Source: Eledone cirrhosa (Eukaryota). Taken from it: 64,000 nucleotides of DNA. The translations under genes and the position numbers were made by a program. The DNA lies in contig OZ024755.1 in the NCBI GenBank assembly GCA_964016885.1, forward strand, positions 2,976,001 through 3,040,000, read 5' to 3'. Position 1 is the first letter of the stretch, and every line of letters starts with the position of its first letter. Shown here piece by piece: positions 18,421 through 60,800 of the stretch. The notes under the pieces were generated by a model, which was given only the letters and a program-made list of their open reading frames with translations, searched no databases and was not told the DNA's origin.

Positions 18421-18564
18421 ATATGGTGAACTAACTGTTGTGTTACTACTTATATATATATATGTATATATATGAGAGACAGAGAGATATCAGAATTTTA
18501 CCAGTATTAACCAAGTGAGACAATAATTCAGTAGAGTACTCGATACTTGGCTAGAGTGTAACTA

Positions 18565-18731
18565 TATTAGAAAGTCGGGACTTGATGGGTGAGCTGCGGC
18601 CGTTTCGATACAGCCGGAGCTCAACCGTCGGGGTCCTGACTCTTTTCCTATTACCCACTCTACTACCCATAGTATAAAGTACTCTGGTGCGTTATGGTCC
18701 ACCTGGCTCCTTACCACACTTCCTCCGTTAT

Positions 18732-20708: not shown

Positions 20709-20803
20709 GTACACATGCACACACACACACACAGACACATACATATATATATATATGAGTTCGGATCAAGCTGCCGAAACTCAGCCGTCGGGGTCCTGAC
20801 TCT

Positions 20804-20841
<38 letters not shown>

Positions 20842-23284: not shown

Positions 23285-23378
23285 TAGGAAAAAAGTATGA
23301 CCCGACGGCAGAGCTCAGTATTGAGTACTCTGGTGCGTTATGGTCCATCTGGTTCCTTACCACAATTCCTTTGTTATA
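23285..23378 (+). mobile_element. Family D copy with internal deletion
   Basis: AGGAAAAAAGTATGACCCGACGGCAGAGCTC joined directly to the tail AGTATTGAGTACTCTGGTGCG (compare 56081). Confidence 0.8.
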
Positions 23379-23389
23379 TATATATATAA

Positions 23390-23578
23390 AGTTTATCCCG
23401 GGTTCAATGGAGGTAACCACAGTAAGTAAGGTACTCAATACAAAGCAGAGTATAACTATTTAATATAGAAAAGGCTTCTACAGGACTAGAACTGTTTCAT
23501 TCGGGAGAAATCATCAGGAAGCCCTGATGATTTCTCTCGAATGAAACAGTTCTAGTCCTGTAGAAGCCTTTTCTATAT

Positions 23579-23585
<7 letters not shown>
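23390..23585 (-). mobile_element. Hammerhead element family C with fold-back palindrome
   Basis: Reverse complement of 19494-19680; arms about 23458-23518 and 23523-23583. Confidence 0.85.
23473..23523 (-). ncRNA. Type I hammerhead ribozyme with intact core
   Basis: GGCUUC-CUGAUGA-U-UUC-UCCC-GAA-U-GAAACAG-UUCUAGUC-CUGUA/GAAGCC: 6-bp stem I, 3-bp stem II, 4-bp stem III, GUA cleavage triplet (predicted cut between 23479 and 23478). Confidence 0.8.
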
Positions 23586-42315: not shown

Positions 42316-42318
<3 letters not shown>

Positions 42319-42515
42319 GGAAAAGGTTCAAGCCCCCGACGGCAGAGCTCAAGCCGTTTCGACGGCTATATCTGGACTGATATAGCCGTCGATACGGGTT
42401 GAGTTCTGCCGTCGGGGTCCTGAACCTTTTCCTATTACCCACTCTACTACCCAAAGTATCGAGGACTCTGGTGCGTTATGGTCCACCTGGTTCCTTACCT
42501 CACTTCCTTCGTTAT
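42316..42515 (+). mobile_element. Family D element: 120-bp palindrome plus 80-bp tail
   Basis: Palindrome 42316-42435 centred on TGGACT; flanked by (TA)n. Confidence 0.85.
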
Positions 42516-56080: not shown

Positions 56081-56280
56081 ATAGGAAAAAGTATGACCAC
56101 GACGGCAGAGCTCAAGCCGTTTCGACGGCTATTTCTGGACTCCAGAAATAGTCGTCGAAATGGCTTGATCTCTGCCGTCGGGGTCATACTTTTTCCTATT
56201 TCCCACTCTACTACCCTAAGTATTGAGTACTCTGGTGCGTTATGGTCCATCTGGTTCCTTACCACAATTCCTTTGTTATA
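56081..56280 (+). mobile_element. Family D element: 119-bp palindrome plus tail
   Basis: Palindrome 56081-56199 centred on CTGG-ACT-CCAG. Confidence 0.85.
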
Positions 56281-60479: not shown

Positions 60480-60800
60480 ATACCTCGTAATTGTCCTTTT
60501 AACAATAATTGTCTTCCGAAAGGTTTGATCTACTATGCTAAATTCCGTTTAGAGAACAATACTACTCTCATATCTTATATTGCCCTCAATGAAATCTCTT
60601 TCAAAACCAGGTTTTATCAATATATTCACATAATTATGAAATCTGAAATCATTCTGACACAATCCATTTCTAAACATATCTAGTTTTATTTTAGAGGCAT
60701 GAGAAATCCATTATTCCCTGCCATTTAACTGGAGATTATTTCTATGGTAATTCAAAATTTGTTTCTGTTTGCTGTTGAAATTCCATGTTATTCTATAATG
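60480..60800 (+). pseudogene. Decayed Penelope-like GIY-YIG endonuclease relic
   Basis: CPFNNNCLPKGLIYYAK...SYIALNEISFKTRF...SISKHI followed by frameshifted FNWRL; resembles the PLE pattern CPL.G.CL...VY.A...YIG.TE..FK.R...LSKHIW. Confidence 0.65.

What the first reader, a model, noticed from the sequence alone, without database searches (positions are those of the whole stretch)
42316..42515. Family D: palindromes pivoting in what would be hammerhead stem II, with a hairpin-collapse series
Seen: the consensus of the arms reads GTC-GAAACGGC-ttgagctct-GCCGTC/GGGGTC, i.e. the GAAA, stem III and GUC half of a hammerhead. The CUGANGA half is replaced by a mirror copy, centred on GGACT in both 42316 and 56081. 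Copies at 18565, 20757 and 23285 lack progressively more of the hairpin. Inference: snap-back at the stem II loop during reverse transcription, followed by cruciform deletion. Five copies in 64 kb imply a very abundant family.
Basis: partly seen in the sequence, partly recalled or inferred. Interest (0 to 1): 0.7.

Follow-up and report, generated by a model that had tools for sequence, protein, structure and literature searches.

The report
Half-ribozyme Penelope retrotransposon palindromes
These short mirror-image repeats are clipped ends of an abundant Penelope-like jumping gene whose intact copies carry a complete but unusual hammerhead ribozyme sequence; each mirror pair was likely made by copying the gene's RNA from both sides of one DNA cut up to a stopping point inside the ribozyme.

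Summary
The palindromes are real. They are terminal fragments of an autonomous Hydra-clade Penelope-like retroelement (PLE) that inserts in (TA)n. A tail 21-mer has 42,845 exact matches; a pLTR-ORF-pLTR copy has an open 786-codon RT/GIY-YIG frame. Helix II is enlarged and covaries. The pivot cluster in loop II is real: 52 of 90 tailed and 53 of 72 tail-less arms end in an 18-nt zone. Snap-back plus collapse fits poorly: the tail-less arm is often the longer one (15 vs 6 short copies; 6 of 14 long ones). Best reading: two cDNAs primed from both cut ends, starting 80 nt apart, run off at an RNA 5' end (likely an internal start site; no RNA data). The inverted-pLTR-plus-tail shape and U3-A8 are published, and this scan reported two-ended priming on other DNA before.

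The parts
42319..42378 (-). Tail-less inverted arm: from start site 1 (base of helix I) back to position -18 relative to the G of GAAA, inside loop II
42379..42432 (+). Tailed arm, hammerhead part: 3' strand of helix II (from -12), GAAA (here GATA, 42391-42394), helix III, GTC triplet 42411-42413, 3' strand of helix I up to site 1
   Evidence: structure from intact copies
42433..42514 (+). 80-nt PLE tail between start sites 1 and 2; in the full element it continues in frame into the ORF
56084..56141 (-). Second copy, tail-less inverted arm ending at -18
56141..56278 (+). Second copy, tailed arm from -16 (1-nt overlap with the left arm) to site 2
18569..18730 (+). Old-subfamily copy: decayed inverted arm (about 18569-18608) joined at a self-complementary TCGA to a tailed arm 18605-18730
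20757..20808 (+). Single tail-less arm between two (TA)n runs: one extra G, then the element from -18 to site 1, with a short internal deletion
23287..23376 (+). 30-nt inverted arm (23287-23316) joined to the last 60 nt of the tail (23317-23376)

Best explanation
Family D is the 3' end (half of the pLTR hammerhead plus an 80-nt tail) of an autonomous Hydra-clade Penelope-like retrotransposon inserted in (TA)n, and each palindrome was likely made from two separate cDNAs primed from the two ends of one cut. Shown: element identity, two fixed outer ends 80 nt apart, independent arm lengths, short overlaps or inserts at the joint, and a stop zone at -25 to -8 inside loop II for both arms. Inferred: the GIY-YIG domain cuts both strands; one 3' end primes at site 1 and the other at site 2; both cDNAs run toward the RNA 5' end and are joined head to head. 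Inferred, about even odds: the stop zone is the transcript start of the internal pLTR promoter, so the usual template holds only half a ribozyme and yields 140-200-bp palindromes, while long arms come from the downstream pLTR or read-through RNA. The full ribozyme is predicted to fold; its activity is untested.
For: Full element: L177 has pLTR-tail-ORF-3'UTR-pLTR with an inverted truncated copy, all in (TA)n; the protein has RWR, DKT, YRDD, CNC-x6-C, NVIY/YIG, CxxC and CxH, matching the Hydra description in PMC8557442 section 11. 67 of 72 inverted arms start exactly at site 1; all 14 long two-armed insertions have one end at site 1 and one at site 2. Tail-less arm longer in 15 vs 6 short and 6 of 14 long copies; 11 of the 15 still end in the stop zone. 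End rate per nt is about 0.05 in the zone against 0.005-0.006 before it; summed contig depth in run X1 falls about 25-fold across it. Start-site hints: Inr-like TCATT/TTAGT/TCAGT at -22 and -18 (consensus recalled); G precedes A(-18) 15 times against A once in 84 arms; 10 of 59 arms joined to (TA)n carry an extra G (by eye). Published support: a PLE protein cuts and extends both strands and starts at two sites that bound the tail (PMC11167929); the Penelope transcript starts in the upstream pLTR from an internal promoter (PMC2377424).
Against: No RNA 5' ends were seen. The extra-G signal is confounded: about 10 of the 15 can come from the other arm, G vs A before A(-18) in (TA)n-joined arms is 6 to 1 (p 0.125), and extra C is also common. 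Ends spread over about 11 nt rather than one base, and many reach -21/-22. 63 of 67 classifiable palindromes have arms of one subfamily, which snap-back also predicts. 51 of 72 short copies have arms within 10 nt of each other. Later one-sided deletion could explain part of the asymmetry. The 90-copy sample comes from one end of one contig and needs an exact tail 21-mer; the 14 long copies were hand-picked. Pfam gave no family for the protein and no tree was built.
Confidence: 0.7

Rival explanations
1. Same element and two-ended priming, but the stop zone is a reverse-transcription stall: the nascent cDNA hairpin spanning GAAA, or the helix II arm of the RNA, releases the enzyme 6-16 nt later.
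For: The zone lies just past a self-complementary 14-mer and inside a conserved structured arm; ends are spread out; 7 of 59 tailed arms and about 19 of 79 tail-less arms (by eye) pass it.
Against: Arms that pass seldom stop in the next 35 nt, which hold more structure (2 of 7); extra-G hints; jumps from the zone to other templates (L207; joints 5073-to-4847 and 5160-to-4853) suit a template end, although a stall allows them too.
Confidence: 0.35
2. First reader's model, close to the self-priming model in PMC3846280: one cDNA folds back at loop II and copies itself; later cruciform deletions shorten the hairpin.
For: Arms nearly always share a subfamily (63 of 67); most short copies are near-symmetric (51 of 72); internal deletions occur (5 of 90 flagged).
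Against: Tail-less arms up to 2.4 kb longer than the tailed arm (L185, L184, L182, L186); the mirror arm starts at a fixed site 80 nt short of the tail end; 4 of 67 pairs differ in subfamily signature (one differs by a single base, one may be two neighbouring insertions); single tail-less arms end in the same zone (window 20757).
Confidence: 0.1
3. A non-autonomous DNA element (MITE or Helitron-like) that moves as a palindrome.
For: Short, palindromic, (TA)n-flanked, very abundant.
Against: Continuous with an RT/GIY-YIG ORF and 3' UTR; every copy has its own joint; one-sided tail.
Confidence: 0.02

Closest known systems
Hydra-clade PLEs (Craig et al. 2021, PMC8557442), e.g. Hydra-1_Obim and Penelope-13_HM
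   Same: Single ORF with C-terminal GIY-YIG, DKT, RW[KR], CxC-x-C linker, no CCHH, (TA)n target, type I hammerhead near the 3' end, inverted 5'-truncated copy.
   Different: All 26 Hydra hammerhead rows in the part of File S2 that was read have a CTGANGA core with short loops II and III; this family has UUGANAA/UUGANGA/CUGANAA, a helix II arm of about 55 nt and a 9-nt loop III. Unit about 3.5 kb against mostly under 3 kb; tail 80 nt against 30-40. Two tail motifs and one HHR motif were not found in the held, cut supplement.
Inverted pLTR plus tail of EN+ PLEs (Adineta Pen2a, PMC3846280; Anolis PAc, PMC11167929)
   Same: Head-to-head arms, tail on one arm only, tail overlapping the start of the reading frame, short overlap at the joint.
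   Different: Here most copies stop inside the ribozyme, so only half of it is mirrored; PMC3846280 explains the shape by self-priming, which the arm lengths here do not fit; no TSD can be read in (TA)n.
U3-A8 hammerheads (Schistosoma Cercyon PLEs, PMC4209133; natural variants, PMC3088659)
   Same: U3-A8 replaces C3-G8; about 1,300 hits reported in Schistosoma; motifs on opposite strands near each other also noted.
   Different: Those are minimal dimer-type motifs; this one has a 5-pair helix III and coexists with U3.G8 (oldest subfamilies) and C3.A8 (1,327 copies) relatives.

Membership tests
EN+ Penelope-like element | Single ORF with RT and GIY-YIG endonuclease | tested here: met
   786-codon open frame; motifs; Atlas neighbours carry GIY-YIG, RVT_1 and HTH_animal on part of their members; Pfam scan itself found nothing
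EN+ Penelope-like element | Partial tandem forming pLTRs, inverted 5'-truncated copy, one-sided tail | tested here: met
   L177 and L183; 14 long insertions
Hydra clade | RWK, DKT, CxCX5C linker, CxxC and CxH around the EN end, no CCHH | tested here: met
   RWR at 104, DKT 184, CNC-x6-C 639, CxxC 737, CxH 765; close by eye to the Hydra alignment in the supplement; linker has 6 rather than 5 residues
Hydra clade | (TA)n target | tested here: met
Hydra clade | Canonical CUGANGA hammerhead | tested here: not met
   9 canonical matches against 5,673 for the family core pattern; the core is a variant, hence filed as a variant
Hydra clade | Grouping with Hydra in an RT phylogeny | not tested
Type I hammerhead ribozyme | Three helices around the core with G10.1-C11.1, GAAA, A15.1-U16.1 and NUH | tested here: met
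   92% of 525 cells paired, 6 pairs changed on both sides, 0 of 500 shuffles reach the covariation score (related sequences, so not a probability); free fold gives the junction or close to it in 5 of 12 representatives. Against: fold z only -0.52, RNAalifold recovers helices II and III but not I, no Rfam hit
Type I hammerhead ribozyme | Pair 3-8 | tested here: inconclusive
   UA 11, UG 10, CG 1, unpaired 3 of 25 deliberately diverse copies; 1,327 C3.A8 copies genome-wide
Type I hammerhead ribozyme | Self-cleavage at GUC | not testable with these tools
   Only a hint: a small cluster of arm ends at +20 to +27 (8 of 72; 5 of 100 at +22 to +24 by eye), which coincides with the base of helix III and a direct repeat
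Naiad | N-terminal GIY-YIG | tested here: not met
   EN motifs lie at residues 639-765, after the RT
Non-LTR retrozyme | Non-coding tandem units of 150-500 nt, each with a hammerhead | tested here: not met
   The tandem unit is the 3.5-kb coding element (L183)

The most novel reading that the evidence does not exclude
This PLE starts its transcript inside loop II of its own hammerhead, so the mRNA is born with half a ribozyme and cannot cut itself; a dimeric enzyme copies that 5' end from both sides of the cut, and the tens of thousands of half-ribozyme palindromes are a genomic record of the start site. Meanwhile the core drifted from U3.G8 through U3-A8 to a mismatched C3.A8 in amplifying subfamilies while the helices were kept, which would mean the fold serves the enzyme more than cleavage.
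Probability: 0.35. Interest if true: 0.7.

Novelty: new variant of a known kind. Interest (0 to 1): 0.45.

Why it matters
How PLEs make inverted copies is open: PMC3846280 proposed self-priming, and PMC8557442 calls for an in vitro system. This family gives an open ORF, young subfamilies (arms 1.2-1.3% apart) and over 40,000 insertions whose arm lengths favour two-ended priming. It also offers natural U3.G8, U3-A8 and C3.A8 cores in one scaffold to test whether pLTR hammerheads must cleave, and shows that CUGANGA-based searches would miss such elements. If transcribed, the 60-bp perfect hairpins would be ready double-stranded RNA; PMC5625713 links such hairpins to hyper-editing and reports octopus as rich in both (the host group here is inferred, not tested).

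Tried and rejected
CTGANGA within 30 nt of the GAAA half: 49 matches, the 30 read were heterogeneous chance joints; the gap allowed was too short and the core is a variant. L009, whose tail runs into non-TA sequence, is a single case inside another repeat. Naiad and its 'HHR_half_core' note were a false lead. Rfam: only microsatellite-driven miRNA hits among the 150 shown of 551 in the window, no hammerhead hit on the intact copy. Pfam 0 families; PDB nothing below E 2.7. No RNA holder listed; contigs of four runs of unrecorded kind cannot show starts. Arm-mapping runs had reference problems and were replaced; one search is used only for the window copies. In one search, 18 of 90 copies had no short inverted arm starting near site 1 (long, single-armed or missed) and were left out of the two-arm counts; L290 is likely mis-parsed. 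L114 was left out of the long-copy count (1 of 15 loci; unclear layout). A self-cleavage footprint at +23 could not be told from a stall or a repeat-mediated deletion. No rooted order of core variants was tested; age rests on arm-to-arm divergence of 3-25 copies per subfamily.

Full report
Observation. Window 42316-42437 is a 60-bp-arm palindrome (-59.9 kcal/mol, z -16.5) followed by an 80-nt tail, between (TA)n runs. The copy at 56081 is built alike, and BLAST finds the three other places. The genome is 3.0 Gb. A tail 21-mer occurs 42,845 times, and 20 arbitrary 10-kb stretches held 8 insertions. Coordinates below count from the G of GAAA.

Finding the intact form. A search for CTGANGA within 30 nt gave 49 matches; the 30 read were unrelated joints. 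Among 30 tail-selected loci, five shared a non-palindromic upstream. It reads ACCCC, then a core, then a long helix II arm. The family pattern matches 5,673 places, with 2 in the reversed control. Of these, 1,327 have C3 with A8. A looser pattern with G8 gives 61, of which 9 are CTGANGA (old subfamilies are undercounted by exact patterns). On 25 diverse copies the hammerhead structure pairs 92% of cells, with changes on both sides in helix II. Free folding gives the three-way junction or close to it in 5 of 12 representatives. Against this, the fold is no more stable than shuffles, the consensus fold misses helix I and Rfam has no hit. U3-A8 is a known natural, active covariation (PMC3088659 passages) and is known from Schistosoma PLEs (PMC4209133 parts 1-2 of 4). 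Arm-to-arm divergence is 8-9% in subfamilies linked to U3.G8, 1.2-4.6% in U3-A8 ones and 4.9% in the mainly C3.A8 one (small samples).

The element. Locus L177 holds, inside (TA)n, an inverted truncated copy with the tail, a truncated unit, then pLTR, tail, ORF, 3' UTR and pLTR. The tail runs in frame into a 786-codon open frame whose motifs fit the Hydra clade as defined in PMC8557442 section 11 and resemble its alignment by eye. The Hydra hammerheads listed in its File S2 are canonical (supplement part 2 of 59; the file is held cut). The window itself has only terminal fragments of this family.

How the palindromes form. In 90 tail-selected copies from one end of contig C1, 72 have an inverted arm; 67 of these start exactly at site 1, 80 nt short of the tail end. 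Inner ends fall at -25 to -8 for 52 of 90 tailed and 53 of 72 tail-less arms, about ten times the rate per base just before. Only 2 and 1 end in -59 to -26; 5 tailed arms are long. Summed contig depth of run X1 drops about 25-fold across the zone. But the arms are not copies of each other: the tail-less arm reaches further in 15 copies and the tailed arm in 6, and in 14 hand-picked long insertions the tail-less arm is longer in 6, by up to 2.4 kb or more. Joints are blunt or overlap by 1-6 nt in 46 of 72 and carry inserts in 26. Arms share a subfamily in 63 of 67. Two cDNAs from the two ends of one cut explain all this. It agrees with the in vitro finding that a PLE protein extends both strands from two start sites bounding the tail (PMC11167929 parts 1-2 of 4), and differs from the self-priming model (PMC3846280 passages).

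Why the stop zone. The Penelope transcript starts in the upstream pLTR from an internal promoter (PMC2377424 passages). Inr-like motifs (consensus recalled) lie at -22 and -18. An extra G, as cap copying would leave (recalled from LINE work), is seen at window 20757, in 15 of 84 arms before A(-18) against 1 A (partly explained by the other arm), and in 10 of 59 (TA)n-joined arms (by eye, where extra C is also frequent). This is suggestive only; a structure-caused stall stays a serious rival, and no RNA run was listed. A small second cluster of ends at the predicted cut site is ambiguous.

The series. The five window copies carry three subfamily signatures and differ in which arm is short. They are a sample of end points, not steps of one decay.

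Novelty. The insertion shape and the U3-A8 core are published. Seven paper searches returned no description of this family, of a non-canonical Hydra hammerhead or of a start site inside loop II; the library lacks most subscription papers and Repbase/Dfam were not searchable. Also seen: PMC8557442 passages, PMC13282606 and PMC5625713 passages, bioRxiv 10.64898/2026.07.22.740005 part 1 of 5 (its supplements were not seen). My two-cDNA reading was recorded, before searches showed that the scan had reached it on other DNA. Verdict: a new variant of a known kind, interest 0.45.

Noticed in passing
window 23389-23582: A second PLE-type palindrome with a one-sided tail, this one with a complete canonical CTGATGA hammerhead in each arm and its turn just upstream of the core; it recurs beside family D in several loci (L003, L024, L026, L027).
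   Followed up: no
window 16701-16829 (-) and 60492-60680 (+): Short fragments of other Hydra-like PLE reading frames (53% over 43 aa; 33% over 63 aa).
   Followed up: partly
window 18509-18548 (-): A decayed inverted tail fragment next to the 18565 copy; possibly an older copy used as the target.
   Followed up: no
L009:1300-1500; L040, L048 upstream of the match: A family D arm joined to an inverted duplicate of flanking or other repeat sequence; in L009 the arm begins exactly at the predicted cut site.
   Followed up: partly
L031, L049, L057: Family D arms of different subfamilies joined to the same inverted piece of another hammerhead-bearing repeat, suggesting template jumps between PLE RNAs (selected by the search pattern).
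   Followed up: no
L207; run X1 joints on L177 (5073 to 4847, 5160 to 4853): cDNA that reached the stop zone appears to have jumped to another part of the element.
   Followed up: partly
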